Positions 4,197 to 29,600 of a stretch of 64,000 bases of DNA are shown here, one piece after another. Below the pieces are notes generated by a model that saw nothing but the letters and a program-made list of their open reading frames with translations, had not been told where the DNA came from and ran no database searches. Position 1 is the stretch's first letter. Each line of letters opens with the position of its first letter. This DNA comes from a virus. Lineage: Duplodnaviria > Caudoviricetes. The position numbers and the translations under genes were made by a program. Location: IMG/VR virus record IMGVR_UViG_3300028410_000746. One strand, 5' to 3'.

Positions 4197-4459
4197 TTGA
4201 ACTGAACGTGTAGGCCCGCACTACCCGAGACCCCATAGGCCTTGGCGAAGGGCTGCCACACCGTCTTTATCCAGGTCTCGACATTCGGGAAGTGAACCTG
4301 GGGATTGTACGGACTCACCTTGAAGGGCTTATGACCCAGGCAGAGATAGTTAACATTCTCCCTGTCATTCTGGAGTAGGACGAGATGTATCCCCGGATGG
4401 GCCTCGGGGTCAATCTCAGCATCGCTCCACTGAAGCTCTTGCCACACCTCCAATCTCAT
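4193..4459 (-). CDS. Hypothetical protein
   Basis: ATG ORF just downstream of a terminator/promoter junction. Confidence 0.6.
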   Translation of the reverse strand: MRLEVWQELQWSDAEIDPEAHPGIHLVLLQNDRENVNYLCLGHKPFKVSPYNPQVHFPNVETWIKTVWQPFAKAYGVSGSAGLHVQFN

Positions 4460-4478
4460 GAGTCACTGAACGCAAGAA

Positions 4479-4502
4479 GCCTACCTCAATGGGGAGGCAG
4501 GC
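4479..4502 (-). terminator. Intrinsic terminator-like hairpin
   Basis: GCCTGCCTC-CCCATT-GAGGTAGGC followed by TTCTT on minus strand. Confidence 0.55.
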
Positions 4503-4531
4503 GTCAAGCGAAAGCGTGCTGAAACTGCAAG

Positions 4532-4999
4532 TCAGTCGATGTCGGCTTCTTTGAGCAAGGGGAGGAGGTCCGCGCGAAGTTCCGGCTTGGTGTACGCCAA
4601 CTTCACCAGGGCGGCCCGCAGATTGCTCTCAGAGGCACGCACGAAGCGTCGGTTGAGGTCACGCATCTGCGCAATCGAGGGGTCCTTGATGTAGTAAAGC
4701 TTGCCCTTGCCGTCCCTGAAGTACAGGTTCTCTTCACCCTGCTCCTGATAGCGAAAGGGGCCACGCATACGGTCCAGCTCCGAAGGGTCCTCAATGGCCT
4801 CAGGCCGCGCGTCTCGCTCCACGAAGAGCCTTCGCAGGATGCGCATCTGAGCATCCGAAGGCTCCTTGATGAAGTAACGCTGACCGCTGCGGTCGGTGAA
4901 GTAGGTGTTCTCTTCACCCTGACTCTCAATCCGGAAAGGCTTCCAGGACATGTCCAGCTCAGAGGGGTCTTCGATTTGGATCAGTTTGCTACGCGGCAT
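4532..4999 (-). CDS. Hypothetical protein with an internally duplicated ~60-aa domain
   Basis: Two copies of IEDPSELD..PFR....GEEN.YF.D..G..Y.IK.PS.AQMR.L.R.FV; C-terminal LRAALVKLAYTKPELRADLLPLLK. Confidence 0.8.
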   Translation of the reverse strand: MPRSKLIQIEDPSELDMSWKPFRIESQGEENTYFTDRSGQRYFIKEPSDAQMRILRRLFVERDARPEAIEDPSELDRMRGPFRYQEQGEENLYFRDGKGKLYYIKDPSIAQMRDLNRRFVRASESNLRAALVKLAYTKPELRADLLPLLKEADID

Positions 5000-5079
5000 G
5001 AGAGCACCTCTATCTTGGATGTGTTGACGGGTTACATGGGGGGGCCCTATATCAACGTATTATCATCCCTCGAACGAAA

Positions 5080-5109
5080 GACGCCTACCCCAAAGATGAG
5101 GTAGGCGTC
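5080..5109 (-). terminator. Terminator hairpin after the tRNA-His/Cys pair
   Basis: Perfect 10-bp inverted repeat GACGCCTACC/GGTAGGCGTC followed by TTTCGTT. Confidence 0.7.
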
Positions 5110-5112
5110 CAG

Positions 5113-5187
5113 GGCGACTGACGGGACTTGAACCCGCGACTTCCGGTGTCACAGACTGGCGCTCTAACCAACTGAGCTACAGCCGCC
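5113..5187 (-). tRNA. tRNA-His(GTG)
   Basis: Cloverleaf GCGGCTG/CAGTCGC, loop CT-GTG-AC, G-1 and C73; one A-C mismatch in anticodon stem; no encoded CCA. Confidence 0.92.
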
Positions 5188-5208
5188 ATGATCTCCCCCG
5201 AGGGAGAG

Positions 5209-5281
5209 AGGTAAGAGTGGGAGTCGAACCCACTGCGACTCGTGTTGCAGACGAGCGCCCCGCCACCAGGGCCTTCTTACC
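5209..5281 (-). tRNA. tRNA-Cys(GCA)
   Basis: GGTAAGA/TCTTACC acceptor, CTCGT-CTGCAAC-ACGAG, U73. Confidence 0.9.
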
Positions 5282-5385
5282 GAACATCACCACCGGGACT
5301 CGAACTCGGATCTACACTGGAGGACGACGGCGACATCACGAACCCCAACCGCTGCCGGTTGAGAGGCTATTCCACGTCAGGAGTA

Positions 5386-5414
5386 TTTACCCTCGTCAAC
5401 CTCTGTGGTACAAA
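5386..5414 (+). promoter_or_regulatory. Sigma70-type promoter
   Basis: TTTACC-N17(ending TGTGG)-TACAAA ahead of ORF 5448. Confidence 0.6.
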
Positions 5415-5447
5415 GAAGCTTCAACCAAACTCTAAAGCAGAGCGGAC

Positions 5448-5948
5448 ATGGGCCAATATTACCGACCAGTCATCCTGAATGCTGACGATGAGGTTACCGC
5501 CTGGGTGCGGTGCTACGACTACCAGAACGGCGCCAAGCTCATGGAGCATAGCTACCTCGGCAACAACTTCGTGATGGCCGTGGACATGCTCCTGCTAGAG
5601 AACGCTCAACGTCTCGTCTGGGCGGGCGACTACGCCGAGGAAGACTACTACCTGCGGTGCACTGAAGAGTCTAAGAAGACACCTCTCGCAGGCGCGCGGC
5701 AGCCCCCTTACGTTATCAACCAGGACAAGAAGACGTACTTCAACCGCGATGAGGTCCGAAAAGACCTGGAAGGACACGTGCTGGACCCGCTCCCCCTGCT
5801 CACTGCTCTGGGGAACGGGAGAGGGGGCAGAGACTACCGAGGCGCCGATACCGAGGACGTGGGCATCTGGGCAGGTGACCGCATTCGAGTGAGCTTCACC
5901 AAGCCCTCCGAGGAGTACGCGCGGGATTATTTCTTCTTCGCTATGTGA
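5448..5948 (+). CDS. Conserved-type phage hypothetical protein
   Basis: MGQYY...AKLMEHSYLGN...LVWAGDYA; own promoter. Confidence 0.8.
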   Translation: MGQYYRPVILNADDEVTAWVRCYDYQNGAKLMEHSYLGNNFVMAVDMLLLENAQRLVWAGDYAEEDYYLRCTEESKKTPLAGARQPPYVINQDKKTYFNRDEVRKDLEGHVLDPLPLLTALGNGRGGRDYRGADTEDVGIWAGDRIRVSFTKPSEEYARDYFFFAM

Positions 5949-6240
5949 GAAGCGCGCTCTTGAGCTTGAGCCGGTCCGCGTACCACAGGACACGGACGTC
6001 TCCGATCACGCTCTCCAGCCTATGAGACTTGCAGTGCTCAGGTAACCCTACCTGAGCCCGCGTGATCGAGTGACGCTCAGAGTCTGAAAGCCGATAGAGG
6101 CCTCCCGAAGTCTCACCCTGAGCTGCGAGGGCGTCCCGAACATACGAGAGCCTTGAGAGCACCAGATCCTCAAGAGAGGTAAACGCACATTCGAGCTGCG
6201 GCCCGTGCGGACCTTCCCTACGCAACACCCAGACCTTCAC
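5941..6240 (-). CDS. Hypothetical protein
   Basis: ORF with RBS, convergent on 5448 gene. Confidence 0.6.
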   Translation of the reverse strand: MKVWVLRREGPHGPQLECAFTSLEDLVLSRLSYVRDALAAQGETSGGLYRLSDSERHSITRAQVGLPEHCKSHRLESVIGDVRVLWYADRLKLKSALLT

Positions 6241-6388
6241 TCCAGACCTCCGCCCTCATGCCACCGACCACACCGCACGCATATTTGATAGTACCGTACA
6301 GGGTGACGTGAGCCCGAACGTACAAGCGGCCTCATGCCAAAGGGCACCCACCAATGGAAGCCCAGACGACATCTCCAGGGTACCTTCG

Positions 6389-6769
6389 TCACGATGAATT
6401 TCCTCGCGCAGCCAAGTCCGCCTGCATTTGAGCGTGCTCAACGCGAACCTTCTGGACCGCTTCAGGCACATCGGTGGGGGGCACCTCACCGGGTGCATTC
6501 GGCAACAGGTACCACTGAGTGGCGTCATCCTGGGGAACCGAAGAGAACCCCCAAAACGATCCATGTCCGTCAGGCACGGCAGGGACATACCACCCCAAGC
6601 TTCCCCCTTCCTCCAGAGGAACACTCGAAGGCAAGAGATCACGCCCTACCTCATCATGCACGCACGCAACGCACCTGAGCATGTCATCTACCAAAAACAC
6701 GGCGGACTTTCGGTAGAGCTTACAGTCACATGCTCCACATAGACCGCACCGATACGGGTATTCACTCAC
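6389..6769 (-). CDS. Cys-rich hypothetical protein
   Basis: CGLCGACDCKLYR...LRCVAC; GWYVPAVP. Confidence 0.7.
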   Translation of the reverse strand: MSEYPYRCGLCGACDCKLYRKSAVFLVDDMLRCVACVHDEVGRDLLPSSVPLEEGGSLGWYVPAVPDGHGSFWGFSSVPQDDATQWYLLPNAPGEVPPTDVPEAVQKVRVEHAQMQADLAARGNSS

Positions 6770-6989
6770 TGTCAGTCTCCTCTAGATGCTTTTGAACTTC
6801 TGCCAACGTGGACGGAGCACGGCCCGTGTCCTCCATGTTGATCTCGTCAAGAGACGTCACCGTGCTCCCCAGGAGACGAGCGATCTCTTCCCACGTCACG
6901 GTGTGACCCTCGACCAGGAGGCGCCCGGTGTCGCCATCATAGACCGCCTCCCAATCGCCACTCTCCGCACACACGCGCACGAGGTTCAT
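6762..6989 (-). CDS. Hypothetical protein
   Basis: Acidic ORF overlapping the next start. Confidence 0.65.
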   Translation of the reverse strand: MNLVRVCAESGDWEAVYDGDTGRLLVEGHTVTWEEIARLLGSTVTSLDEINMEDTGRAPSTLAEVQKHLEETDSE

Positions 6990-7466
6990 AGGACCCCCTC
7001 TTGGTTACGGGTATAGGCCCCGTGTGCGAAGTACGAGGCCACCAGCAGCACGAGGCTACAAGGAATCAGCAGAATCAAACCTGCGGTGACCTCATCAATG
7101 AAGTAGTCAAGGCGGTGAAACGTTACAGCCTTGGATACCTCACCTGCACCCGAAAAGACCTGCTGGATATAGCCCACGGCGCGAACGCACACAGGTTATT
7201 GAGGAAAGGTTGCCCACGACGTGGGGGCTCAAAACCGCGAATCATACACCACCCTCGGACTGGACAGACTCCCACAGCGCCACACTTAGCACCGCAGGAG
7301 CTGCCATGCCCATGTAACATACCATAGACATCGCACCCCCGACAAGCGAGATGCCCATGGAGACGACATCTGAATACGGCCGAGGGAGGGGGCGCGATAC
7401 ACGCTCCGAGATGTGACCCGCCACCGTGCTTACGAGCTGACTCGGAAGGGGCGCCACGTGTGTCAA

Positions 7467-7983
7467 GGGGACATCCCCGCGTGTGCGGGGAGGGGTTGAC
7501 CGAGCACTGCTTCAGGTTGTCGATGTGGGGGACATCCCCGCGTACACGGGGAGGGGAAAACTTCTCCTGGGGGGTCTCTGCGGGCGCGGGGGACATCCCC
7601 GCGTGTGCGGGGAGGGGTTCCATCACTGCGCAGGAGCCGATGGCGGCGACGGGACATCCCCGCGTGTGCGGGGAGGGGTGCGCGACACAAGTCGTACATA
7701 AGCTCATTGCGGGGACATCCCCGCGTGTGCGGGGAGGGGTGACTCCGAGACCTCCGAGAGTGAGTCGCCGAGGGGACATCCCCGCGTGTGCGGGGAGGGG
7801 AAGCACGTCCGCGTCGGGCTGGTCAAAGCCAAGGGGACATCCCCGCGTGTGCGGGGAGGGGCCCGTCGTCTGGACCGCCGCTGACCTTATGGAGGGGACA
7901 TCCCCGCGTGTGCGGGGAGGGGAACTCATGGCGAGATGGTCTCCCAGGTCATACGGGGACATCCCCGCGTGTGCGGGGAGGGG
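7467..7983 (-). CRISPR. Type I-E-like CRISPR array: 9 repeats of 29 nt, 8 spacers of 32 nt, no cas genes in window
   Basis: GGGGACATCCCCGCGTGTGCGGGGAGGGG (+ strand) at 7467, 7528, 7589, 7650, 7711, 7772, 7833, 7894, 7955 (period 61); minus-sense hairpin CCCCGC-ACAC-GCGGGG; leader at the high-coordinate end. Confidence 0.98.
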
Positions 7984-8123
7984 TCTGTGCCAAGAAGTCA
8001 CATGCGTTAGATCGCGTAAGTATTCGGTTTTCAAAGACTTTCAGGGTTCAGTGTCAAAGAGCGTCACTCTTGGGCGACCCTCTTGACGTCCTTACGGTAA
8101 CCTTGGTGAGGGAGACATGTCAA
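7984..8123 (-). promoter_or_regulatory. CRISPR leader with promoter
   Basis: AT-richer 140 bp abutting repeat 9; TTGACA(8123-8118)-N18-TACCGT(8099-8094); IHF-like TTTCAAAGACTT; second copy at 12025-12164. Confidence 0.8.
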
Positions 8124-8130
8124 GCTGTAT

Positions 8131-8160
8131 TTGACACGACGGTATCCAGTACGCTATTAA
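8131..8160 (+). promoter_or_regulatory. Divergent promoter for ORF 8191
   Basis: TTGACA-N18-TATTAA. Confidence 0.6.
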
Positions 8161-8190
8161 CAGGGCACACCGTAACCAAGAGGCACCCCT

Positions 8191-8982
8191 ATGAGCACAC
8201 GTGAAGGTCTCCGAGCCAAGCTCTCCACACTCCCCCTGAAGCTCAAGCCCTACGCAGAGGTTGACCTCGAACGGGACTGCAAGCTCATGACGGGCTCCGG
8301 CTGGATGTTCGAGATGATGTCTCGCATGGAGAACGCGATGTGGGGGAGGTGGGGCTACTGGCTCAACGCATGGGCGACCATGCAGCCTCCGACCGAGGCC
8401 ATCCCTCAGATCGAATTCGAGAACGCGCCCAACCCCTTCGTGCTCAAGATGCTCGACCACACCCTTGAGTGCTGCACCCAGGGACGCATCCACCGCTACC
8501 GCGCCATGGAGTGGCTGGTGGACTGGATCAGGTGGTCACTGGGAGGGCTCAAGGACAAGCCCGAGAACCCGGTCCCGGAGATCCCGAGCGACGTGATCGC
8601 CTATCAGGTGTTCCAGCTCGACCCCATGGTCCTCTACCCCTACGACTACTTCGGGCACTGGTACGCGGAAGCCGGGCACGGGAAGAATGGAGCTGCGTTT
8701 TACCCTACCCCAATGGGCCTCACCAACCTCATGGAGCGTATCCTCTACGGAAATGACCCCCTCCCCACATCCTCCTCCGCATGTGACCCCGCCGTGGGCA
8801 CAGGAAGGACCCTCCTGGCGGCCAGCAACAGCTCCTTACGCCTCTACGGTCAGGACATCGACGCGCGCGTCCTCGCCTGTCTGGAGGTCAATTTCGCGCT
8901 CTACGCCCCGTGGGGCTATCGACCTCTGCCAGACGCCGTGTGGACCGCTCACTCCTCCTCGAAAATGACCTCCTCTCCATAG
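8191..8982 (+). CDS. N6-adenine methyltransferase-like (HsdM-type SAM-binding) protein lacking motif IV
   Basis: AAFYPTP, ACDPAVGTGRTLL, LYGQDID; no NPPF/DPPY; ends TAG. Confidence 0.7.
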   Translation: MSTREGLRAKLSTLPLKLKPYAEVDLERDCKLMTGSGWMFEMMSRMENAMWGRWGYWLNAWATMQPPTEAIPQIEFENAPNPFVLKMLDHTLECCTQGRIHRYRAMEWLVDWIRWSLGGLKDKPENPVPEIPSDVIAYQVFQLDPMVLYPYDYFGHWYAEAGHGKNGAAFYPTPMGLTNLMERILYGNDPLPTSSSACDPAVGTGRTLLAASNSSLRLYGQDIDARVLACLEVNFALYAPWGYRPLPDAVWTAHSSSKMTSSP

Positions 8983-9167
8983 AGCCGCACATTGGACACC
9001 GAGAGGCTCATGGAACCACGTGAGGGGTAGAGCGTTACCGGAGGACCCTCCAACGACGCGATGAGGGGGAGGTTGTCCGGGAACGGTACCTCCGGCGTCT
9101 CCAGCACACCCACCTCACGAGCGGCGAGCAGTCTCAAACCCTCCAACCTCTTCTGATCGTCGCTCAT
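8949..9167 (-). CDS. Hypothetical protein
   Basis: ATG ORF in minus-strand cluster. Confidence 0.55.
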   Translation of the reverse strand: MSDDQKRLEGLRLLAAREVGVLETPEVPFPDNLPLIASLEGPPVTLYPSRGSMSLSVSNVRLYGEEVIFEEE

Positions 9168-9477
9168 ACCACTGCTCCAGGAAAGCGGGGACAGGCTCTT
9201 CGACCATCCCGAGTTCTACCAAGTATAGACGCAGGGCCTCGTGGGCCTCGTGCGTCCAAGGCGTAAACAAGAGGCCCTCGCCGCCGCCCTCTACCCAAGG
9301 CATGTCTACAAACGCATCCACACCGAACACGTCTTCAATGCGATCCAAGAGCTGGTCATCCCGGCACGTCTCGTCACCATCCCACAGCTCAGGAGCTACG
9401 AGCGTGAAGAGCGTCCCCGACGGGCGAAGCTCCAGCACCACGAATCGCCACGTTCCCGGACCGGTTTGATCACACAT
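9115..9477 (-). CDS. Hypothetical protein
   Basis: Start reassigned to ATG 9477 with GGAG RBS 6 nt upstream. Confidence 0.6.
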   Translation of the reverse strand: MCDQTGPGTWRFVVLELRPSGTLFTLVAPELWDGDETCRDDQLLDRIEDVFGVDAFVDMPWVEGGGEGLLFTPWTHEAHEALRLYLVELGMVEEPVPAFLEQWYERRSEEVGGFETARRS

Positions 9478-9487
9478 ACACATCTCC

Positions 9488-9531
9488 AAAAAAGCGGAGG
9501 GGGAGTCGAACCCCCGGCGCCGCACTCCGCT
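9488..9531 (-). ncRNA. tRNA top-half (acceptor plus T-arm) minihelix followed by U7
   Basis: GCGGAG-TGCGGCGCC-GGGGG-TTCGACT-CCCC-CTCCGC-TTTTTTT. Confidence 0.45.
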
Positions 9532-9567
9532 AAGACACTACTCAAAGAGGGATGGACGCTGCCAGGA

Positions 9568-9747
9568 TCAAGCACCTTTATGTGCGTCTCCATACACTTC
9601 CTGGTAAAGCCCCAGGAGCTGCCGCGCCCCGTGGAGGACCACCGGATAGAAGAGCACGGCGAGGCTGATCACGACACCCGCACGCATGAACTGGAAAAGC
9701 TCCACATCCCTTACGGTGCCCGCCCACGTATACAGCCCGTGTGTCAT
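9568..9747 (-). CDS. Small membrane protein (59 aa)
   Basis: Not in ORF track; MTHGLYTWAG...VVISLAVLFYPVVLHG; ATGA overlap with 9744 stop. Confidence 0.6.
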   Translation of the reverse strand: MTHGLYTWAGTVRDVELFQFMRAGVVISLAVLFYPVVLHGARQLLGLYQEVYGDAHKGA

Positions 9748-10190
9748 CCAGTCGGCTCCGAGCTGTCGTGCAGGTTCTCGAAGATGAAGCCCGCCTCAAG
9801 GAAACGCGCCTTGACCTCCGACCACCCCGAGCCCGTCACCTCAAAGAGACTCTCCTGGCATTGCCCCTGGAGACCCAAACGCGCGTAACGCGCACCCAGC
9901 TCCTCTCGAATCTCCGCGTTCGTATCCCAATCAGGGTAGGGACCATCCGCACGATCTCGAAGAGCCTGTGAACAGATGTACACCAGAACCAAACCCTCCT
10001 CATCCTCATACCCGTCGTCAGAGAACGTGAAGTACCACGTCCCCTCAACAGTAGTCGGCAAGACCAGAAGGCTTTGAGCCTCTCTCAGAACCGCTTTGGC
10101 CTGCTTCAAGGTGAGTCCCGCCTTCTCCGGGTCCAGCTCGTGCGCTACGAGGAGCGTCAAGTCTCTCAGGACCTCTTCTCGCGTCTTCAT
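9744..10190 (-). CDS. Hypothetical protein
   Basis: Coupled ORF, typical codon usage. Confidence 0.75.
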   Translation of the reverse strand: MKTREEVLRDLTLLVAHELDPEKAGLTLKQAKAVLREAQSLLVLPTTVEGTWYFTFSDDGYEDEEGLVLVYICSQALRDRADGPYPDWDTNAEIREELGARYARLGLQGQCQESLFEVTGSGWSEVKARFLEAGFIFENLHDSSEPTG

Positions 10191-10375
10191 CAGGAGGTAT
10201 CTCGCTGCCGCACGTGAATGCTACATGCCACCAAGAAGATCGTGGCGTGAATCCAGCACCTCATGTTGAAGTCTTCGAGGGACTCCGCTTCCAGAGCCGC
10301 GAGCTGTTTCGCGAAGCTCTTTGACTTGAGTAGCACTGCACGGGAGACCCGCCGCTTTCCAATCACATAACTCAT
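10190..10375 (-). CDS. Hypothetical protein
   Basis: Stop/start overlap with 10190. Confidence 0.55.
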   Translation of the reverse strand: MSYVIGKRRVSRAVLLKSKSFAKQLAALEAESLEDFNMRCWIHATIFLVACSIHVRQRDTS

Positions 10376-10396
10376 ACTCTACTCCCTCTTCTCGGC

Positions 10397-10696
10397 TCAC
10401 GAGAGCCAGTTATTAACGTCCGCCTCGAACTCCGGGTACTCCTTGAGCACCGCGTCAAGGGTGCGACCCGTCCCGGTGACCTCCACCAGGACGTCAGCCC
10501 CATGTTCGGTGAAGAGCACCTCCAGGATATCCCGACCCGTTGCCAGGGCGGTCTGGACAGGCTCCGCGTACACCTCGCGCATGGCTCCGAGGACCCACTC
10601 GCGGCACGAGTGTCGAAGCTCCTCTTCGCGTTCCGCACAGTCCTCAGAACTCGCGATCGCGTGGCGCTCATCGTACTCGCTGTAACCGTATCCCAT
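10397..10696 (-). CDS. Hypothetical protein
   Basis: Start reassigned to ATG 10696 (GGAG RBS), behind a TGTGG-TATATA promoter element at about 10735-10760. Confidence 0.7.
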   Translation of the reverse strand: MGYGYSEYDERHAIASSEDCAEREEELRHSCREWVLGAMREVYAEPVQTALATGRDILEVLFTEHGADVLVEVTGTGRTLDAVLKEYPEFEADVNNWLS

Positions 10697-10789
10697 GACC
10701 AGCTCCGTGTGTGTCTGTGTTGTCTTACACACCCTATATACCACAAGGGGGGGCCGTAAAAACTCATTCAGATTTTCGAGAGCAGTCCA

Positions 10790-10863
10790 TGCGCCGAGTG
10801 GGGCTCGAACCCACAACACGGGGATTTAGAATCCCCTGCTCTAACCCGTTGAGCTATCGGCGC
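10790..10863 (-). tRNA. Amber suppressor-type tRNA (anticodon CTA) on a tRNA-Phe-like scaffold
   Basis: GCGCCGA/TCGGCGC, GCTC/GAGC D-stem, GGGGA-TTCTAAA-TCCCC, GTGGG-TTCGAGC-CCCAC, A73; all stems perfect. Confidence 0.92.
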
Positions 10864-10869
10864 TAAAAC

Positions 10870-10980
10870 CTCGCAGAAGACTCCGGTTGTACGGCCGGAG
10901 TCCTCCTGTAGCCCTTATTAGGAGCGTCGTGTCAGGCAGCGGTATCACCCGCGTTCCGTCACCGAGGTGCTTGCCTTGAG
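10870..10980 (-). ncRNA. Structured RNA repeat, downstream copy
   Basis: About 80 percent identical to 11006-11115 over an ~86-nt core; period 135; several hairpins; no ORF. Confidence 0.6.
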
Positions 10981-11005
10981 TCAGTGTTTCCAGAAGCTGT
11001 GTGCT

Positions 11006-11115
11006 CCGCAGAACTGTCCGGTTATACGGCCGGAGTTCTTTGTAACCCTTACTAGGGGCGTCGTGCTAGACAGCGGTTTCATCCGCGTTCCGGCACCGGA
11101 GCTGCTCTGTCCTCA
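11006..11115 (-). ncRNA. Structured RNA repeat, upstream copy
   Basis: Starts just after promoter 11134-11162; compensatory changes relative to the other copy. Confidence 0.6.
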
Positions 11116-11133
11116 CTGACTGAAGACACCCCC

Positions 11134-11162
11134 TATATACCACAAGAAAGAGACCCTGTAAA
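11134..11162 (-). promoter_or_regulatory. Sigma70-type promoter for the ncRNA-ncRNA-tRNA(CUA) unit
   Basis: TTTACA-N17(TGTGG)-TATATA. Confidence 0.75.
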
Positions 11163-11170
11163 ACTACTTC

Positions 11171-11422
11171 TCACTCTTCTTCCGAGGAGTCGTGTTCGGG
11201 ACGGGCGGCGGAAAACGCGTTCAGGAAACGCTCCCGTCGCGCCGCACCCTCGGAGGGCTTCCCGAGCTGAGCTTGGAGGTACGGGATAATAGCCGAAGAG
11301 GCGGCGGGACGGCCTGACCCCCTTGAGAGTGCCTCCAGGATTTGATTGCTGCGCGAGGTACGCCCCACGGAGCCGTTATCTTCATTCGACACGGGGACCT
11401 CCACGTTCATCCAAGGCATCAC
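11171..11422 (-). CDS. Hypothetical protein
   Basis: ATG ORF. Confidence 0.45.
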   Translation of the reverse strand: MMPWMNVEVPVSNEDNGSVGRTSRSNQILEALSRGSGRPAASSAIIPYLQAQLGKPSEGAARRERFLNAFSAARPEHDSSEEE

Positions 11423-11930
11423 GGCCCTTCTGAGTAAGGGTCATCGTCGGGCCGCTCAACTTCACCTGCTCCCAGGTCGCCAACTCGCCTATGGCATAGC
11501 TCAAGGGCTTGAGATCCGGGGCGGCCACGCGAGCCTGAGCCGAATCCATCACAAGCACGTGCCAACGCTCCCCCGTCTTGTCTACGAGACGACACAAGCT
11601 CTTCGCATCCAGGGCTCCGTGTATCCACAGGAGCGACAAGATCGTGAGATGCACATCTTCCAGGGGATAGGTCACCACACTCAGATCACCCTCTCCCGCA
11701 GGGTCACTTGGATCACGAGGGGGAGGCGGCTCAAACTCCGTGAGAGCGCCCTCCTGGGATGTAAGACCCCATTTACGACGCAACGACACCCGCGTGTCCC
11801 GTATCAGGCGGCCTATTCGCACCGTCTTGACGTACTTCCAGCAGGTGATGCTCCAGATGAGCACAAGCAACACGAACACGCTCACGAGAGCATACGATAC
11901 CCACAGAGCGGACGATTCCCACCCCATCAC
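11382..11930 (-). CDS. Hypothetical membrane-anchored protein with wHTH-like C-terminus
   Basis: N-terminal TM segment; ends TLTQKGRDAL. Confidence 0.65.
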   Translation of the reverse strand: MMGWESSALWVSYALVSVFVLLVLIWSITCWKYVKTVRIGRLIRDTRVSLRRKWGLTSQEGALTEFEPPPPRDPSDPAGEGDLSVVTYPLEDVHLTILSLLWIHGALDAKSLCRLVDKTGERWHVLVMDSAQARVAAPDLKPLSYAIGELATWEQVKLSGPTMTLTQKGRDALDERGGPRVE

Positions 11931-11995
11931 AAACCTCCAGTCACGTCAAAGGAGCGTGCCCGTTGTACGAACTGCGCGGCATCAAAGTGCATCCA

Positions 11996-12024
11996 CGGAA
12001 CATCCCCGCGTGTGCGGGGAAGGG
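11996..12024 (-). CRISPR. Solitary CRISPR repeat (26/29 identical to the array consensus)
   Basis: CGGAACATCCCCGCGTGTGCGGGGAAGGG; intact hairpin; no second repeat 61 nt away. Confidence 0.85.
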
Positions 12025-12164
12025 TCTGTGCCAAGAAGTCACATGAGCGGAATCACGTAAGTACTCAGTTTTCAAAGACTTCTCAGGTTCAGCGCCGTTC
12101 GGTGTCACCCTTGGGCGACCCTCTTGACGTCCGTATGGTAACCCTGAGGAGGGAAACCTGTCAA
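12025..12164 (-). promoter_or_regulatory. Second copy of the CRISPR leader
   Basis: Ungapped 140-bp paralogue of 7984-8123; TTGACA-N18-TACCAT retained. Confidence 0.85.
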
Positions 12165-12249
12165 CATGAGCAAGCTTCGCTTCCGCCAATTGCTTCAAAT
12201 GCGCATCCCTCAACCCGAACCTCCTGTCACAGTGTGAGTCCGAAGAGAG

Positions 12250-12278
12250 AGGATACCTCGAAGTCACACACCTGTCAA
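12250..12278 (-). promoter_or_regulatory. Sigma70-type promoter
   Basis: TTGACA-N17-TATCCT immediately after tRNA-Asn. Confidence 0.6.
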
Positions 12279-12279
12279 G

Positions 12280-12350
12280 CTCTGGGACCGGGACTTGAAC
12301 CCGGAAAGATTGGTTAACAGCCAATTATGATACCATTTCATCATCCCAGA
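12280..12350 (-). tRNA. tRNA-Asn(GTT)
   Basis: TCTGGGA/TCCCAGA, ATTGG-CTGTTAA-CCAAT, G73. Confidence 0.9.
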
Positions 12351-12377
12351 AGACGATCACGTTACCGCGACCGACAG

Positions 12378-12462
12378 GGTGTCGGGAAGGAGTCGAACCT
12401 TCATACCTCCGAAGAGGAACTGGGCCACACGGAGGCGAGCCTGCCAATGCTCAACCGGACGC
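12378..12462 (-). ncRNA. tRNA-like gene D (loop GT-GTG-GC, C73); cis stems broken
   Basis: D-arm, UUCG variable arm and T-arm intact; own acceptor 3/7, own anticodon stem 2/5; cross-pairs with 12468-12551. Confidence 0.75.
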
Positions 12463-12467
12463 CCAAA

Positions 12468-12551
12468 TGCGCCGGGTAGGAGTCGAACCTACAGGTCTCC
12501 GAAGAGAACCCTCGCTACAACCAGCCGAGCTTACCAATGCTCAACCGACAC
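12468..12551 (-). ncRNA. tRNA-like gene U (loop TT-GTA-GC, A73); cis anticodon stem broken
   Basis: D-, variable and T-arms intact; own acceptor needs two G-U pairs; own anticodon stem 2/5; 5' half complements the 3' half of 12378-12462. Confidence 0.75.
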
Positions 12552-12555
12552 GCAA

Positions 12556-12636
12556 TGCGTTGGGCAGGACTCGAACCTGCACGCCCGAAGGACCGGGGCT
12601 ACAACCCGGCGAGCCAGCCAATTGCTCAACCAACGC
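12556..12636 (-). tRNA. tRNA-Tyr(GTA)
   Basis: GCGTTGG/CCAACGC, CCGGG-TTGTAGC-CCCGG, long variable arm, A73; G37. Confidence 0.85.
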
Positions 12637-12665
12637 AGATCACGAGCCTCACACGCTCGCGACAA

Positions 12666-12745
12666 TGACCTCTCACGGAATCGAACCGTGACCCGCAGGG
12701 GGAGACACCCCCACGTAGGTGAGGAAAAGTCTGCGACAAGAAGTC
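12666..12745 (-). ncRNA. tRNA-like RNA with acceptor stem and T-arm but no canonical D or anticodon arm
   Basis: AATGACTTCT/AGAGGTCATT 10-bp closing stem; CACGG-TTCGATT-CCGTG; GGGGG-TGTCT-CCCCC. Confidence 0.55.
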
Positions 12746-12792
12746 ATTGCACGTGTGTAATCGAGAGACGTAGTGCTCTCATTCCCAAAAGA

Positions 12793-13362
12793 TTACTCCT
12801 CTCCGTCGTCCATATACACATCATCAGGCCCGCGAGCATTCAACAGGAGCAACTGAGCACCCAGGACGTCCAGCGCGCCGTAGAGCGACGACGCGGCGCC
12901 GTGAGCGTCCTCCAGACATGCTTGGTAGCACGGCTCACCATCTCGCATCTCGACAGACAACAAAACGTCCTCTCTCGCCGTACGTAGTACCGAAGGGGGG
13001 AGCACCGTCGAGGAGGGGCCCTTGAAGCCCATGAGCAGGACCCCAGCGCTCTTTGCGTGGCGCTTGAAGCCGTTGTAGCGCTGAATCAGTTCCCGATGCG
13101 AGGATTCGCGTTCAGGGTACTCGACCGCGTGGGTACGAGTAGGGCCGACGTAGCTGAAGCGAGGGCCTTCATAGCCGTACTCCGGCTTGTCCACGTGCTC
13201 CAGGAACATCTCAACAGGACGTGCCCACAACTCCCCAGAACGATCAGGCCGATGGTACACGGCTACAGGAGAGTCGCCTTCCGAATGCCTAGCGACCCCT
13301 ACCAGAAAGTAGAGGTCACCCTTGAAGTGGCGGTAGTAACCGGGCACCGGTTCAGTAGTCAT
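12793..13362 (-). CDS. DUF1653 domain protein
   Basis: GYYRHFKGDLY...ARHSE...VY...LWARPVEMFLE. Confidence 0.85.
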   Translation of the reverse strand: MTTEPVPGYYRHFKGDLYFLVGVARHSEGDSPVAVYHRPDRSGELWARPVEMFLEHVDKPEYGYEGPRFSYVGPTRTHAVEYPERESSHRELIQRYNGFKRHAKSAGVLLMGFKGPSSTVLPPSVLRTAREDVLLSVEMRDGEPCYQACLEDAHGAASSLYGALDVLGAQLLLLNARGPDDVYMDDGEE

Positions 13363-13943
13363 CTAGATGCCTTGGTCAGGTACGCCATGATATCAGTCAG
13401 CGTGCCGAAGTTGTCCAACGTGTCCGACTCCAGGATCTCCCCCTCTTGGGTGACCTTCATCTCCACGCACCCCCAAGGGTTCTTTGCCGTGGGTGGGTAC
13501 GACCTCAACACGATGGCGAGGTTGCCCCGCACCAGAAGCTCCTCACGAGGCTTACCGGGAGCGTTAAGGTCTCGCCACATCTTCAAAGGCTCCGAGACTC
13601 CCCACTCTGCGAAGTCCACCGACTTGGCCTTCGAGGTGACGTACCGATCACTGTCGTTCTCGTGACCCCAGGGTCCCAGATTCGGCATCGCCATGATCTG
13701 GAACATAGAAGCGAGTGCTGCCACGACCTCATCCAGGGAGACCATGAACAGGCCTTCGCTCTCCGCGTACTCAGCATCCTCGCTCAATGCGAAGACGTTG
13801 TAGTCCCCGTAAGGGACGCAGGGTGAGACCAGAACAGGACACTCCATGTCCCGAAGGACGGCCTGAAGGTTCTCGGAGGGGATGTCCTCCGAAATGGCGA
13901 CGTGGCCGAGGAGCTTCGCGTTGGGGGCCCAGTTGTTCATCAT
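13359..13943 (-). CDS. Hypothetical protein
   Basis: ATGA-coupled ORF behind a promoter. Confidence 0.8.
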   Translation of the reverse strand: MMNNWAPNAKLLGHVAISEDIPSENLQAVLRDMECPVLVSPCVPYGDYNVFALSEDAEYAESEGLFMVSLDEVVAALASMFQIMAMPNLGPWGHENDSDRYVTSKAKSVDFAEWGVSEPLKMWRDLNAPGKPREELLVRGNLAIVLRSYPPTAKNPWGCVEMKVTQEGEILESDTLDNFGTLTDIMAYLTKASR

Positions 13944-26322: not shown

Positions 26323-26633
26323 TGCGCAAACCATGGGTGTGCCGTGACTCCCCGACCGCCGCAGTCGTCACATGGAGGATGAGAATAGAGAACCCCCTCG
26401 CCGCCACACGCGCCACACTCAAGGTCGTAGAGGACCCCTTGGTAGTCACACCTCGCGCAGCCGTCCGGATCTTCCCCGTCTCCTTCCCCTCCGCAGGCCG
26501 GACACGGAATCTCTTCCAGGAAGCCATCCCCCCGACAGACCTCGCACTCGGTCTCCAGGAGGAGATCCTTTCGGACCCCCTCCATCATACAGACCTCGCA
26601 CTCGACGAGCATTGTGGGAGGCATGGGACTCAT
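26319..26633 (-). CDS. DnaJ-type CxxCxGxG repeat protein
   Basis: Six CxxC repeats, most followed by xGxG; no J-domain; coupled to lon. Confidence 0.8.
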   Translation of the reverse strand: MSPMPPTMLVECEVCMMEGVRKDLLLETECEVCRGDGFLEEIPCPACGGEGDGEDPDGCARCDYQGVLYDLECGACGGEGVLYSHPPCDDCGGRGVTAHPWFAQ

Positions 26634-29600
26634 ACAGACGGCTCCTGGACGAAGGGCTCGGTCACCGGGAGAGCCTTGGTCCAGTCACGAAGAACGTCTC
26701 GGAACACCAGCGGCGGAATCTGCTCCACGCGGTCCACCGGGTAGAACGTCATTTCGCTGAGCACCAGGGCGTCCACGTCACGCAGGTCCTTGGTACACTG
26801 CGAGGGCATGATGACCTCACGGATGCCCGCGCGATGCGCGGCGATGACCTTCTCCTTGATGCCGCCGACCGGGAGCACCTGACCCGTGAGCGTAATCTCA
26901 CCGGTCATGGCCACCTCTCGGCGCAGCTTGAGCCCCGCGAAGCGAGAGAGCAAGGCGCTGAACATCGTGATGCCTGCGGAGGGACCATCCTTGGGGATGG
27001 CGCCAGCCGGCACGTGGATGTGAAGGTCGTGCGACTTGATCATGTTGGTGTCTACTCCATACAGATCGCCATGCGCACGCAGGTAGCTCAGGGCAGCCCG
27101 GACAGACTCCTTCATGACGTCTCCGAGCTGGCCCGTCAGCGTCACCTCACCCTTACCCCCTTTCATCGCCTGCACCTCAATGAAGAGGATGTCTCCACCT
27201 ACCGCCGTCCAGGCCAAGCCCGTTGCCACGCCCTCCTGATCCTCACGCTGCGACACCTCCGAGATGTACCGAACGGGACCCAGCGCCTTCTCGACCCGCC
27301 CCATGTCCAGGGGGAACACCGCACCGAGACGCTCAGCCTCCGGAAGCTTGACGACATCCACAGCGATAGAGCGGCACAGGTCTCCCAGCCTACGGTTCAG
27401 GCTACGGACGCCCGCCTCACGGGTGTACTTGTCCACCACGTGGTGGACCACCCCATCCGCGACCTCGATCTGGTCGGGCCCCAGACCGTGGGCGGCTACC
27501 TGCTTGGGGAAGAGATAGCGAGTCGCGATCTCATTCTTCTCGAACATCGTGTAGCTGGGGACCTCCAGGATCTCCATACGGTCACGCAGCGGAGCCGAGA
27601 TCGTATCCAACCGGTTGGCCGTGGCGATGAAGAGGACCTTGGACAGGTCAAGGTCTATCTCCAGGTAGTGGTCGTTGAACGTCGAGTTCTGAGCCGGATC
27701 AAGAACCTCCAGGAACGCGGCGGCGGGGTCGCCTCGGAAGTCCGAGCCCACCTTGTCGATCTCGTCCAGGAGGATGACCGGGTTCATCGTGCCGGCCTTC
27801 TGAAGCGCTCGAACGATGCGGCCCGGCATGGCGCCCACATAGGTACGACGGTGACCACGGATCTCGGACTCGTCGTGCATACCTCCAAGGGAGATGCGCG
27901 CGAACTTGCGGCCCATCGTCCGGGCAATGGACTTGGCGATGGACGTGTTATGCGTCACAATCACGTCATCAGTGATGTAAAGAGAATCAGGAGCAGAGAC
28001 CTTGATGCACTGAGTCTCCTTGACACCTACCGCTACGATATCAGAGATGAACCTCTTGGGAGCGTACTTACTCTTGGAGACCCACCGCTGAGCTTTGGCG
28101 TCACACCAGAAGGGACACTGACCCGCCGACATTGAGACCGTCACGTTGTACGCCAGACGACCCGAACGCCTCTCCCCATCAACCGTATATGACGGCTTTT
28201 TCATCGTCACCCGTGTCACCCCCCCAAGCGACCGGACCAACCACTGCACGTCATCACACAATCGCGTCGACGTCGTACAAAAAGAAACCCTACAACCCGT
28301 CGCGTCTACAGTACCGCCAGTGTCCATCAAGCCCTGCAAAAGAGCGAGCCTCTGCTCTACCGAGCCGTAAAGGTACACATAAGGTACATGCTTTTCGTAC
28401 GAGTAGAGCCCCGTAAGTTCCAGAGCATCCAGCTCCACCTGCAACGCGTCCCGTACAGACCCCTTTCGCCCTGCGGTCAAACGATAGTCACAGGTCTCCG
28501 ACGCTTGCTTGCGCATCCGAACCTCCCCCGGCAAGGCGGCAGCTACGCGTGCGCAAATATCACCCTCTGGGTTTGAAAAACCAACGGAAGCTCCCGTAAG
28601 GCCTCCATCTCCCAAGAGCGCCCCCAAGAGGTACGGGTCAAGGGGTACGGACTTTTCCGCAAACTCCAAGGGCTGGGTCAGAGGGATAGAATGGTTGCGG
28701 CGAGCGTCCGAGCCGTACCGAAGCGTCTCTCGGATTTGCTCCAGAGACTTCACCGACCCCTCACGGGAAGCCTTCCGATCGAGGTCGGTATGCGTGTACC
28801 ACAAGTGCTCGTCGCAACACTCTGTTGATGAGCCGTCTTGAAACTCCACACGATACACCGGCCGCGTGCCTTGAGGGAACGCGCCCTCCACGTGATGAAC
28901 GCCCCCGTCCGCACCCATGACCGCATCACCTACCGCAAGCGTACCCATCGCAACCCAACCCTTCGGGGTCAACACCCGCGCATCCAAAGGCTGCGCCTTG
29001 CCCACACCGGGAGGGCCCACGAAGCACAGGATCGGGCCGTTCATGTCCTGCTTGAGCGCCTGAACAGCCAGATGCTCGACCACCCTTCGCTTCACCTTCT
29101 CCAGGCCGTAGTGGTCCGCGTCGAGCACATCCTCCGCGCGGACGACATCCAGGTTGTCCTCGCTCTCGACGCCCCACGGCACATCGAGCATCTGCTGGAT
29201 GTAGTTGAGCGTCACCGAATACTCGGAGCTGGCCGGCTGCATCGCGTCGAGTCGACGATGCTGCTTCAGGACCGCAGCCTCCACCTCCTCAGGCATGTCT
29301 GCCTCCTGAATACGCTCAAGCAGCTCCTCCGTCTCGGAGATGTCCTCACCGAGCTGGTCCTTGATGACCTTGAGCTGCTGGCGAAGGATGTACTCACGCT
29401 GAATAGACTTGCTGCGCTCCTGGAGCGACTGGTTGATCTCACCCGCCAGCTCCTGGCGCGCGATACGCTCCCCCAGGATGCGCAGACACCGAGACGCGCG
29501 CTCCGTGATGTTCGGCTCCAGGTAGAGAGCCAACAGGTCCTCATCCTCGAAGCGGGGCGCGAGCATGTCTGTAAGGTCTGAGAGGGAGCCCACAGCACGC

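What the first reader, a model, noticed from the sequence alone, without database searches (positions are those of the whole stretch)
10870..11125. Tandem two-copy structured RNA with compensatory changes, ahead of the amber tRNA
Seen: a 135-nt-period duplication with no ORF, right after a strong promoter (11134-11162) and directly upstream of tRNA(CUA). The copies are about 80 percent identical over an ~86-nt core. Differences mostly preserve stems or fall in loops: AGGCA/TGCCT versus GGACA/TGTCT; GCGG-GTGATA-CCGC versus GCGG-ATGAAA-CCGC; CCT-AATA-AGG versus CCT-AGTA-AGG; CTCCGG-CCGTAYAA-CCGGA terminal hairpin. Single-stranded GGAAC, CACGACG and TACA are invariant. The flanks AGTCAGTG (5' of the upstream copy) and CACTGACT (between the copies) can close a long-range stem. 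Inference: a processed ncRNA family such as a protein or toxin decoy, antitoxin mimic or ribozyme. By eye it does not match hammerhead, HDV/theta or twister cores.
Basis: partly seen in the sequence, partly recalled or inferred. Interest (0 to 1): 0.8.

Follow-up and report, generated by a model that had tools for sequence, protein, structure and literature searches.

The report
Orphan twin RNA before phage suppressor tRNA
A huge uncultivated lake-water phage carries two tandem copies of a roughly 100-base RNA that folds into a four-armed junction, placed between a phage promoter and an amber-suppressor tRNA; the fold looks real and matches no known RNA family, but it occurs only in this one phage and its function is unknown.

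Summary
It lies on the minus strand, the strand that carries the window's tRNA genes and nearly all of its long ORFs.

**Layout:** a promoter (11162-11134) is followed by RNA A (about 11127-10973), RNA B (10968-10868), 4 nt, then tRNA(CUA) (10863-10790).

**The copies:** they lie 134 nt apart. They are 84% identical over 83 nt and 79% over the 100-nt core. There are only two in the 127.7-kb record.

**The fold:** both copies fold into the same four-way junction, a closing stem P1 plus three hairpins.
- Random mutation of one copy to the observed divergence rarely keeps the observed stability (P about 0.001 and 0.05).

**What it is not:** it is not coding. It matches no Rfam family, even at E <= 10.

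**Homologues:** none were found in IMG/VR, JGI metagenomes or GTDB genomes. The nearest complete relative, a 437-kb phage, lacks it at the syntenic tRNA locus.

**Best reading (0.45):** two small stable RNAs made on one precursor with the suppressor tRNA and released by tRNA processing. This resembles the layout of T4 rnaC/rnaD, whose function is also unknown.

**Limits:** The scan had already noted this same stretch in an overlapping window (e1-5364530).

The parts
11134..11162 (-). Promoter of the RNA-RNA-tRNA unit: -35 TTTACA (11162-11157), a 17-nt spacer ending in TGTGG (11144-11140), and -10 TATATA (11139-11134). The predicted start is near G11127.
   Evidence: Read from the sequence. The 16-mer CTTGTGGTATATAGGG occurs twice in the window against 0.17 expected. 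Six sites of the same build lie on the gene strand of the 127.7-kb record. The simple sigma-70 scan does not list it because the -10 hexamer ends in A.
10973..11127 (-). RNA A, the whole module of about 155 nt. A terminal rod closes the four-way junction. It consists of GUCUU-C-AGUCAGUG (11127-11114) paired with CACUGACU-C-AAGGC (10986-10973), then CAGAGC (11109-11104) paired with GC-U-UCUG (10997-10991).
   Evidence: MFE and centroid folds of 10978-11127 (-59 kcal/mol, z -3.7, 0 of 200 shuffles as stable) and of the whole predicted transcript (z -5.1).
11003..11102 (-). RNA A core, a four-way junction:
- P1: 11102-11097 with 11008-11003.
- H1: 11096-11063, with tip GCGG-AUGAAA-CCGC and an internal loop holding GGAAC.
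- H2: 11057-11046, CCCU-AGUA-AGGG.
- H3: 11039-11010, AGAACUCCGG-CCGUAUAA-CCGGA-CA-GUUCU.
   Evidence: MFE equals centroid, -41.1 kcal/mol, z -3.3, 0 of 200 shuffles as stable. RNAalifold consensus of both copies.
10868..10968 (-). RNA B core, with the same junction:
- P1: 10968-10963 with 10873-10868.
- H1: 10962-10929, with tip GCGG-GUGAUA-CCGC.
- H2: 10925-10911, CCU-AAUA-AGG.
- H3: 10906-10875, GGAGGACUCCGG-CCGUACAA-CCGGAGUCUUCU.

It is separated from RNA A by 4 nt (AAGC, 10972-10969).
   Evidence: MFE -45.9 kcal/mol, z -3.9. All 28 consensus pairs are standard pairs in both copies, and 3 of the 6 P1 pairs changed on both sides.
10864..10867 (-). A 4-nt linker, UUUA, between P1 of RNA B and the first base of the tRNA. 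RNase P cleavage at the tRNA 5' end would create the 3' end of RNA B here.
   Evidence: Sequence. The RNase P step is inferred from general tRNA biology and was not tested.
10790..10863 (-). tRNA with anticodon CUA (amber suppressor), co-oriented and directly downstream.
   Evidence: ARAGORN; Rfam tRNA 68.1 bits.
10735..10760 (-). A second copy of the promoter box (TTTACG, 14-nt spacer, TATATA) ahead of the ORFan gene 10696-10397. The simple scan found no terminator-like site on the gene strand anywhere in 9500-13500, so none lies between the tRNA and this box.
   Evidence: ORF translated.

Best explanation
The element is a pair of paralogous small structured RNAs. RNA A is about 155 nt and RNA B about 105 nt.

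**Proposed mechanism:**
1. Both are transcribed from a phage promoter of the extended -10 type as one precursor with the amber-suppressor tRNA.
2. Each folds on its own into a compact four-way junction: closing stem P1 plus hairpins H1, H2 and H3. RNA A is additionally closed by a rod formed by the transcript's 5' end.
3. RNase P cleavage at the tRNA 5' end, 4 nt after P1 of RNA B, releases the RNA part.
4. A cut in the 4-nt linker between A and B separates the two.
5. The closed ends make them stable RNAs that act in trans, most probably by binding a protein through the invariant unpaired GGAAC, GACGC and UACA segments and the H3 loop.

**Shown:** the duplication, the shared fold with compensatory changes, the absence of coding potential, the promoter family and the tRNA adjacency.

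**Inferred:** transcription, processing, stability, action in trans and the kind of partner.
For: **Structure**
- Each core folds far better than its shuffles (z -3.3 and -3.9).
- The whole predicted transcript folds into three separate modules, A, B and the tRNA cloverleaf (z -5.1).
- The RNAalifold consensus has 28 pairs, all standard pairs in both copies. P1 has 3 of 6 pairs changed on both sides: G-C to A-U, U-A to C-G, and C-G to U-A.
- Sliding the 3' partners by 1-3 columns drops pairing to 31-48%.

**Selection for the fold**
- Of the 31 pairs in the fold predicted from copy A alone, 28 survive in copy B despite 21 substitutions (simulated P = 0.044).
- Random 21-substitution mutants of A fold at -28.6 +/- 4.8 kcal/mol, against -45.9 for the real B (P about 0.001). 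The reverse test gives P = 0.053.

**Context**
- The promoter belongs to a six-member family on the gene strand.
- The tRNA starts 4 nt after RNA B.
- No terminator-like site was found on the gene strand anywhere in 9500-13500.

**Not coding**
- The only frame open in both copies has no third-position changes, and the 1-nt indel shifts it.
- The best synonymous count over six frames is not beyond chance (P = 0.10).

**Precedent**
- T4 has two tandem small stable RNAs, rnaD and rnaC (119 and 139 nt), next to tRNA-Arg in its tRNA region. They are expressed late and their function is still unknown (PMC9697503).
Against:
- Only two sequences exist, so covariation statistics are weak. The shuffle control cannot go below 1 in 8 (62 of 500).
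- Both DNA strands fold equally well, so the strand rests on context alone.
- No homologue was found in any collection, and the nearest relative phage lacks the element. Conservation across lineages, the usual proof of function, is therefore missing.
- No candidate protein partner was identified. The neighbouring ORFs have no family.
Confidence: 0.45

Rival explanations
1. It is a cis-acting leader of the suppressor tRNA. The two junction domains stay attached to, or act on, the tRNA precursor and set how much mature tRNA(CUA) is made. They might work as tandem ligand- or protein-sensing aptamers or as a processing platform, so that amber suppression is switched on only at a given stage of infection.
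For: - The unit has its own promoter, and the only gene it holds besides the two RNAs is the tRNA.
- Tandem similar domains closed by a P1 stem are the typical build of tandem riboswitch aptamers (established knowledge).
- P1 of RNA B ends 4 nt before the tRNA.
- TAG is the rarest stop on the gene strand, ending 6 of 125 long frames, so controlled suppression is conceivable.
Against: - There is no expression platform. No terminator-like hairpin followed by a U-run lies on the gene strand between RNA B and the tRNA.
- No alternative pairing with the tRNA acceptor strand appears in the folds.
- No riboswitch family matches.
- No natural riboswitch that controls a tRNA is known to me.
Confidence: 0.15
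2. It is a decaying remnant without present function: a recent local duplication of a spacer, a dead mobile element or a degenerate tRNA-like gene whose hairpins are inherited rather than selected.
For: - It lies in a 7-kb stretch (window about 4.2-11.4 kb) made of ORFans, a CRISPR array and tRNAs, with no counterpart in the otherwise syntenic relative G001.
- It is absent from every other sequence searched.
- A more stable ancestor losing pairs neutrally in both copies cannot be fully excluded with two sequences.
Against: - Three double compensatory changes in one 6-bp stem are not expected without selection. My rough estimate is on the order of 1e-5, given 16-21% divergence.
- Copy B is more stable than copy A, not less.
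- The element sits precisely between a functional-looking promoter and a tRNA, with 4-nt linkers.
- There is no tRNA-model match even at E <= 10.
Confidence: 0.2
3. It is a new self-cleaving ribozyme pair that cuts the precursor to free itself and the tRNA.
For: - The junction with conserved unpaired nucleotides is compatible with a catalytic core.
- Several ribozyme classes are known from phage-related contexts (established knowledge).
Against: - No match to any ribozyme family in Rfam 15, even at E <= 10.
- RNase P already explains the 3' cut.
- No conserved candidate cleavage site could be defined from two sequences.
Confidence: 0.05
4. The element works on the other strand or as DNA: either an antisense plus-strand RNA ending at the terminator-like hairpin 11017-11034, or a protein-binding or recombination site.
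For: - The plus strand folds as well as the minus strand.
- On the plus strand H3 becomes a 7-bp hairpin with a tetraloop followed by a T-rich tail, which the scan lists as terminator-like.
Against: - All ten tRNA genes that ARAGORN finds in the window, and the six promoter boxes of this build, are on the minus strand. The long ORFs with family matches, and all those homologous to G001, are also minus-strand.
- No plus-strand promoter was found nearby.
- The minus-strand model uses G-U pairs in H1, H2 and H3 that would be A-C mismatches on the plus strand.
Confidence: 0.07

Closest known systems
Phage T4 species 1 and species 2 RNAs (rnaC, rnaD)
   Same: They are two tandem small stable RNAs (139 and 119 nt, 6 nt apart) encoded in a phage tRNA region, directly next to a tRNA gene on the same strand. 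They are non-coding and their function is still unknown (PMC9697503). This is the closest match in layout and in the likely way the RNAs are made.
   Different: - Order: in T4 the RNAs follow tRNA-Arg; here they precede the tRNA.
- Homology: none detectable. Model R1 finds nothing in the T4 region with filters off, and the alignment shows only a shared 9-mer, GACGGAACG.
- Structure: T4 rnaC ends in a T-arm-like hairpin, CCGGGUUCGAAUCCCGG, which these RNAs lack.
- Relation of the two RNAs: the T4 pair are not obviously copies of each other in the alignment, whereas these two are 79-84% identical.
YrlA-type bacterial and phage Y RNAs (Rfam RF02553; Chen et al. 2014, PMC4201824)
   Same: They are small RNAs with a long stem formed by the 5' and 3' ends and a multi-hairpin head. 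They occur in phages, and this same phage has Y RNA-like genes in another tRNA operon. RNA A has such a terminal rod.
   Different: - No RF02553 match at E <= 10, while the phage's own Y RNA-like genes reach 27-33 bits.
- No T-arm or D-arm mimic.
- The GNCGAAN0-1G motif is absent. The nearest string, G[A/C]CGGAACG, has an extra G and sits in hairpin H1 rather than the terminal stem.
- No TROVE/Ro60 gene in the 127.7-kb record.
GOLLD and ROOL RNAs
   Same: They are structured non-coding RNAs of unknown function that are often found near tRNA genes and in prophages (PMC5737381).
   Different: They are 5-8 times larger (ROOL averages 581 nt), widespread and single-copy. There is no Rfam match here.
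Type III antitoxin RNA arrays (ToxI and relatives)
   Same: They are promoter-driven tandem repeats of a structured RNA that are cut into units.
   Different: From my own knowledge, those repeats are about 34-45 nt, nearly identical, and are followed by a terminator and an endoribonuclease toxin gene. Here the period is 134 nt and identity about 80%. A tRNA follows, and the next ORFs match no defence or toxin model.

Membership tests
Any Rfam 15 family (including hammerhead, twister, twister-sister, pistol, hatchet, HDV-like, hairpin, riboswitches, tmRNA, RtT and 6S) | The covariance model scores at the gathering threshold, or at least E <= 10. | tested here: not met
   In 10600-11400, both strands, only the tRNA matches, plus its antisense shadow hit. 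At gathering threshold the whole window gives only tRNAs.
YrlA-type Y RNA | Match to RF02553, with a tRNA-like T-arm and D-arm domain. | tested here: not met
   No RF02553 or tRNA hit on either copy at E <= 10. As a positive comparison, the Y RNA-like genes of the same phage score 33.2 and 27.1 bits. R1 does not hit them, and there is no shared sequence.
YrlA-type Y RNA | A GNCGAAN0-1G motif near the 5' end in the terminal stem (PMC4201824). | tested here: not met
   [quoted passage not shown] The nearest string is G[A/C]CGGAACG inside H1.
YrlA-type Y RNA | A Ro60 (TROVE) gene nearby on the same strand. | tested here: not met
   PF05731 finds nothing in the 127.7-kb record, and the controls respond. 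The rest of the 373-kb genome was not searched.
T4 rnaC/rnaD-type tRNA-linked stable RNAs | Two tandem non-coding RNAs of about 100-150 nt next to a tRNA gene in a phage tRNA region. | tested here: met
   Layouts compared. This is likeness of arrangement only.
T4 rnaC/rnaD-type tRNA-linked stable RNAs | Sequence or structure homology to rnaC or rnaD. | tested here: not met
   R1 with filters off gives no hit on rnaC or rnaD. The alignment has 56% mean column identity with a single shared 9-mer, and the folds differ.
T4 rnaC/rnaD-type tRNA-linked stable RNAs | Accumulation as discrete stable RNAs during infection. | not testable with these tools
Type III toxin-antitoxin antitoxin array | Short, near-identical tandem repeats followed by a toxin endoribonuclease gene. 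| tested here: not met
   The period is 134 nt with 84% identity. A tRNA follows, and the neighbouring ORFs match no PADLOC, Pfam or PHROG family.
Tandem riboswitch | An expression platform (terminator or start-site sequestering stem) downstream of the aptamers. | tested here: not met
   No terminator-like site on the minus strand. The downstream gene is a tRNA that folds independently in the MFE.
Diversity-generating retroelement TR/VR pair | The differences sit at adenines of one repeat, and a reverse transcriptase is nearby. | tested here: not met
   The 21 differences are of all kinds, 16 of them transitions in both directions. There is no RVT_1 in the record.
Protein-coding gene or small ORF | A frame that is open in both copies, with mostly synonymous change. 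| tested here: not met
   The only frame open in both copies has 0 synonymous and 14 non-synonymous changes. The frames richest in synonymous change carry 2-4 stops. The maximum over six frames is not beyond chance (P = 0.10).

The most novel reading that the evidence does not exclude
The two copies are a new class of functional phage RNA whose job is tied to the amber-suppressor tRNA it is made with. Possible roles include a trans-acting protein sponge, a decoy for a host enzyme that targets tRNA or translation, or a sensor that sets when suppression is switched on. Two features would fit such a link, though neither is evidence on its own: the H2 loop displays UAG-UAA (A) or UAA-UAA (B), and the 8-nt H3 loop CCGUAYAA contains GUA.
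Probability: 0.3. Interest if true: 0.7.

Novelty: new variant of a known kind. Interest (0 to 1): 0.45.

Why it matters
Phage tRNA regions have long been known to hide small stable RNAs whose function is still unexplained; T4 rnaC and rnaD have been known for decades. Huge phages are now turning up more of them, such as Y RNAs, permuted tRNAs and cas-less CRISPR units.

This element adds a new fold to that set. The fold has no Rfam family, shows internal evidence of selection, and is wired to a suppressor tRNA under its own promoter.

If it proves functional, it would offer a small, cloneable system for asking what such tRNA-linked RNAs do and how a phage controls or exploits stop-codon suppression.

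Its weight is limited because it is an orphan: one phage lineage, two copies, no expression data and no partner.

Tried and rejected
**1. Homologue search by degenerate patterns**

| Pattern | Collection | Result |
|---|---|---|
| GGAACGCGG-N6-CCGC-N7-CACGACG | IMG/VR | 2 hits, both in coding DNA |
| GGAAC-N14-TGNCT-NN-CACGACG | IMG/VR | 12 hits, none accepted by model R1 |
| GGAAC-N12-16-TGNCTNNCACGACG-N13-17-TACA | JGI/ENA metagenomes | 11 hits |
| same | GTDB genomes | 6 hits |
| CACGACG..CCTANTAAGG..TACA | IMG/VR | 0 hits |
| TACA..CTCCGGCCGTANAACCGGA | GTDB genomes | 0 hits |
| CGGAACGCGG-N6-CCGCTG | IMG/VR | 34 hits |
| CGGAACGCGG-N6-CCGCTG-NCT | GTDB genomes | 71 hits |

- All 17 hits were rejected by R1. 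Two large lake contigs among them match in what reads as peptidase-coding sequence.
- For some searches, the best R1 scores of 19-27 bits come from the pre-selected H1 piece plus a spurious P1, with H2 and H3 missing.

**2. Other sequence searches**
- blastn of the locus against 50,697 phage genomes matched only the tRNA.
- The scan's own index showed no look-alike in other genomes.

**3. Relatives through proteins**
- The flanking ORFan P0002 has no homologue among 5.8 billion proteins.
- Other assemblies of the same phage are 100% identical, so there is no microdiversity to use.
- The 492-aa marker led to a complete 437-kb relative, G001. It has no R1 hit. Its syntenic locus reads Tyr, Asn, HNH endonuclease, Lys(CUU), without the element.

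**4. Further copies in the own record:** none, by blastn or by the covariance model.

**5. Specific ideas tested and set aside**
- Link to the phage's CRISPR repeat (CCCCGC-ACAC-GCGGGG-AUGUCCCC): H1 is not alike by eye.
- RtcB, Ro60 and reverse transcriptase in the record: none found.
- Coding potential, including a coding-like phase bias of the differences (10, 2, 8 by codon position): not significant, and the frame carries 4 stops.
- In-frame TAG recoding in genes shared with G001: the apparent hits were off-frame shadows that also carry stops in the relative.
- Neighbouring proteins in the protein atlas: only a weak helix-turn-helix likeness for the 182-aa ORF.
- CUA tRNAs of Aeromonas T5-like phages (83% identical): these sit inside ordinary tRNA clusters without such a leader.

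**6. Tool failures**

Full report
**What is there**

The window is part of a large uncultivated phage. One search places it in a 127.7-kb IMG/VR record. The same sequence lies on a 373,477-bp ENA contig. All ten tRNA genes that ARAGORN finds in the window are on the minus strand, as are nearly all the long ORFs that look like genes.

Read on that strand, the locus is:
- a promoter-like site, TTTACA-N17-TATATA with TGTGG ending the spacer, at 11162-11134;
- copy A;
- copy B;
- 4 nt (UUUA);
- tRNA(CUA) at 10863-10790;
- a second exact copy of the 16-nt promoter box CTTGTGGTATATAGGG (10747-10732), ahead of an ORFan gene.

The box belongs to a family of six sites on the gene strand of the record. 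All are built as TTTACG-like, a spacer ending TGTGG, then TATAYA. Five have a 17-nt spacer and one has 14. Those I checked lie just upstream of gene starts. So the unit 'promoter, RNA, RNA, tRNA' is a plausible dedicated transcript. The simple scan sees no terminator on the gene strand in the region.

**The duplication**

- Copy A against the whole record finds only copy B: 84.3% identity over 83 nt, E 9e-10.
- A 34-nt degenerate core matches exactly twice, 134 nt apart, against none expected.
- A covariance model built from both copies finds no third copy in the record.
- Over the 100-nt core there are 21 substitutions, 16 of them transitions, plus one 1-nt indel.

**The fold**

Each core alone folds, with MFE equal to or near the centroid, into the same four-way junction. 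It consists of a 6-bp closing stem P1, a long interrupted hairpin H1, a short hairpin H2 and a hairpin H3. The z-scores are -3.3 and -3.9.

RNAalifold on the two copies gives 28 pairs, all standard pairs in both copies. P1 reads GCUCCG/CGGAGC in A and ACCUCG/CGAGGU in B. That is three pairs changed on both sides out of six.

With only two sequences the built-in shuffle control cannot go below 1 in 8, so I ran two other tests:
1. The fold predicted from A alone keeps 28 of its 31 pairs in B. Random placement of the same substitutions does this well in 4.4% of trials.
2. Random mutants of A with the same number and kind of changes fold at -28.6 +/- 4.8 kcal/mol, whereas the real B folds at -45.9 (P about 0.001). 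The reverse test gives P = 0.053.

Together with the P1 changes, this points to selection for the fold after the duplication. A more stable ancestor decaying neutrally cannot be strictly excluded, but it would not produce three compensated pairs in one stem.

**The whole transcript**

Starting from the predicted start near 11127, the whole transcript folds into three independent modules (z -5.1):
- RNA A, closed by a 13-bp rod formed by the very 5' end (GUCUU-C-AGUCAGUG with CACUGACU-C-AAGGC) plus a second 6-bp stem;
- RNA B, 4 nt further on;
- the tRNA cloverleaf, another 4 nt further on.

The AGGCA/UGCCU pairing proposed for copy B uses bases that this rod occupies.

**Strand**

The plus strand folds equally well. 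The strand assignment rests on the promoter, the gene orientation and some G-U pairs. I put it at about 85-90%.

**Not coding**

The one frame open in both copies has 0 synonymous and 14 non-synonymous changes, and the indel breaks it. One minus-strand frame has a coding-like phase bias (10, 2, 8 by codon position). It carries four stops, and the best synonymous count over six frames is not beyond chance (P = 0.10).

**Not a known family**

- Rfam 15 gives nothing on either strand at E <= 10 except the tRNA. This excludes the known ribozymes, riboswitches, tmRNA, Y RNA and RtT.
- The same phage has Y RNA-like genes in another tRNA operon (earlier notes). I fetched that region. Those genes reach 27-33 bits on RF02553, but my model does not hit them and they share no sequence with the copies.
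- The Y RNA motif GNCGAAN0-1G (PMC4201824) is absent from the terminal stem.
- No Ro60, RtcB or reverse transcriptase gene lies in the record.
- The neighbouring ORFs have no Pfam, PHROG or PADLOC family.

**No homologues**

- Eight degenerate-pattern scans of IMG/VR, JGI/ENA metagenomes and GTDB genomes gave either nothing or chance hits. The hits I read lie in what looks like coding DNA, and the covariance model rejects all of them.
- blastn against 50,697 phage genomes hits only the tRNA.
- Other assemblies of this phage are identical.
- The closest complete relative I could reach, G001 (437 kb, 56% identity in a 492-aa marker), is syntenic over most of window 0-30 kb but has no model hit.
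- At the corresponding tRNA locus G001 has Tyr, Asn, an HNH endonuclease gene and a promoter-driven tRNA-Lys(CUU), which is 80% identical to the CUA tRNA.
- The element lies in a 7-kb stretch (about 4.2-11.4 kb) of ORFans, a CRISPR array and tRNAs that has no counterpart in G001.

**How it most likely works**

The best-supported picture is a pair of small stable RNAs made on one precursor with the suppressor tRNA. The 3' end of RNA B is created by RNase P at the tRNA 5' end. RNA A is protected by its 5'-terminal rod. Both act in trans through their invariant unpaired segments. Only the anatomy is shown; transcription, processing and action are inferred.

The closest known case in layout is T4 rnaD and rnaC. 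These are two tandem stable RNAs of 119 and 139 nt next to tRNA-Arg. They are late-expressed and of unknown function (PMC9697503). There is no detectable homology.

GOLLD and ROOL are also tRNA-linked phage RNAs but far larger (PMC5737381).

The rivals are a cis-acting leader that controls tRNA maturation, a decaying remnant, a new ribozyme, and a plus-strand or DNA-level element. They are weighed in their own sections.

**Verdict**

This is a real, apparently selected, structurally new RNA element. It belongs to a known general kind, the small RNAs embedded in phage tRNA transcription units. It is an orphan with no expression data and no function, so its interest is moderate.

Noticed in passing
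window 11162-11134, 10760-10735, about 14020-13987, about 22310-22276, about 48400-48363; also G000 83712-83722 (+ strand): This phage has a promoter family: TTTACG-like -35, a spacer ending in TGTGG, and TATAYA as the -10. There are six sites, five with a 17-nt spacer and one with 14. Those I checked are intergenic and lie just upstream of gene starts. The -10 lacks the usual final T, which could point to a phage-modified or phage-encoded sigma specificity.
   Followed up: partly
window 11053-11048 (copy A) and 10919-10914 (copy B): Hairpin H2 displays two stop codons in and next to its loop: UAG-UAA in copy A and UAA-UAA in copy B. UAG is the codon read by the co-transcribed tRNA(CUA). As I recall, the tag frame of tmRNA likewise ends with stop codons in the loop of a hairpin (helix 5). 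ARAGORN and Rfam find no tmRNA here.
   Followed up: partly
window 11029-11022 and 10894-10887: The 8-nt H3 loop CCGUAYAA on a CCGG/CCGG stem contains GUA, the tyrosine anticodon. It loosely resembles the anticodon arm of the phage's own tRNA-Tyr (CCGGG-UUGUAGC-CCCGG, 12555-12637). This could be a mimic of a tRNA-Tyr anticodon arm, or chance.
   Followed up: no
window 10790-10863; L037 1493-1567 (G001 150966-151040); L056 1194-1268: The CUA tRNA is 80% identical to tRNA-Lys(CUU) of the relative phage G001, which sits at a roughly corresponding place after Tyr and Asn. It is 83% identical to CUA tRNAs of Aeromonas T5-like phages. It may be a lysine-type tRNA turned into an amber suppressor by one anticodon change.
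   Followed up: partly
G000 whole record (127.7 kb): On the gene strand, open frames of 150 codons or more end in TGA 101 times, TAA 18 times and TAG 6 times. No conserved gene shared with G001 has a credible in-frame TAG, so the genome is not TAG-recoded in this part.
   Followed up: partly
window about 4200-11400: A variable island without counterpart in the otherwise syntenic relative G001. It holds tRNA-His and tRNA-Cys, a 9-repeat type I-E-like CRISPR array (7459-7983), a plus-strand methyltransferase-like ORF (8191-8982), several ORFans, the two RNAs and tRNA(CUA).
   Followed up: partly
window 26630-30079 (-): A phage-encoded Lon protease of 1149 aa has a LAGLIDADG-like domain (residues 575-627) inserted before the AAA+ module. 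This suggests an intein or homing-endonuclease insertion.
   Followed up: no
L037 1669-2289 (+), G001 about 151142-151762: In the relative phage an HNH endonuclease gene sits on the opposite strand between tRNA-Asn and tRNA-Lys. T4 has a similar arrangement, with the homing endonuclease gene segB inside its tRNA region.
   Followed up: no
L046 2445-2583 (T4 rnaC) versus window 10960-10952: T4 rnaC and copy B share the 9-mer GACGGAACG. By my rough estimate such a match between two 130-nt RNAs has a chance of a few percent. It was noticed only after the fact.
   Followed up: no
L034 and L035 (short contigs from SRR6185438 and JGI 3300039191): Two independent short-read assemblies of this phage break inside or just after tRNA(CUA), at the edge of the duplicated RNA and promoter region. 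Repeats that confuse assemblers would explain this.
   Followed up: no
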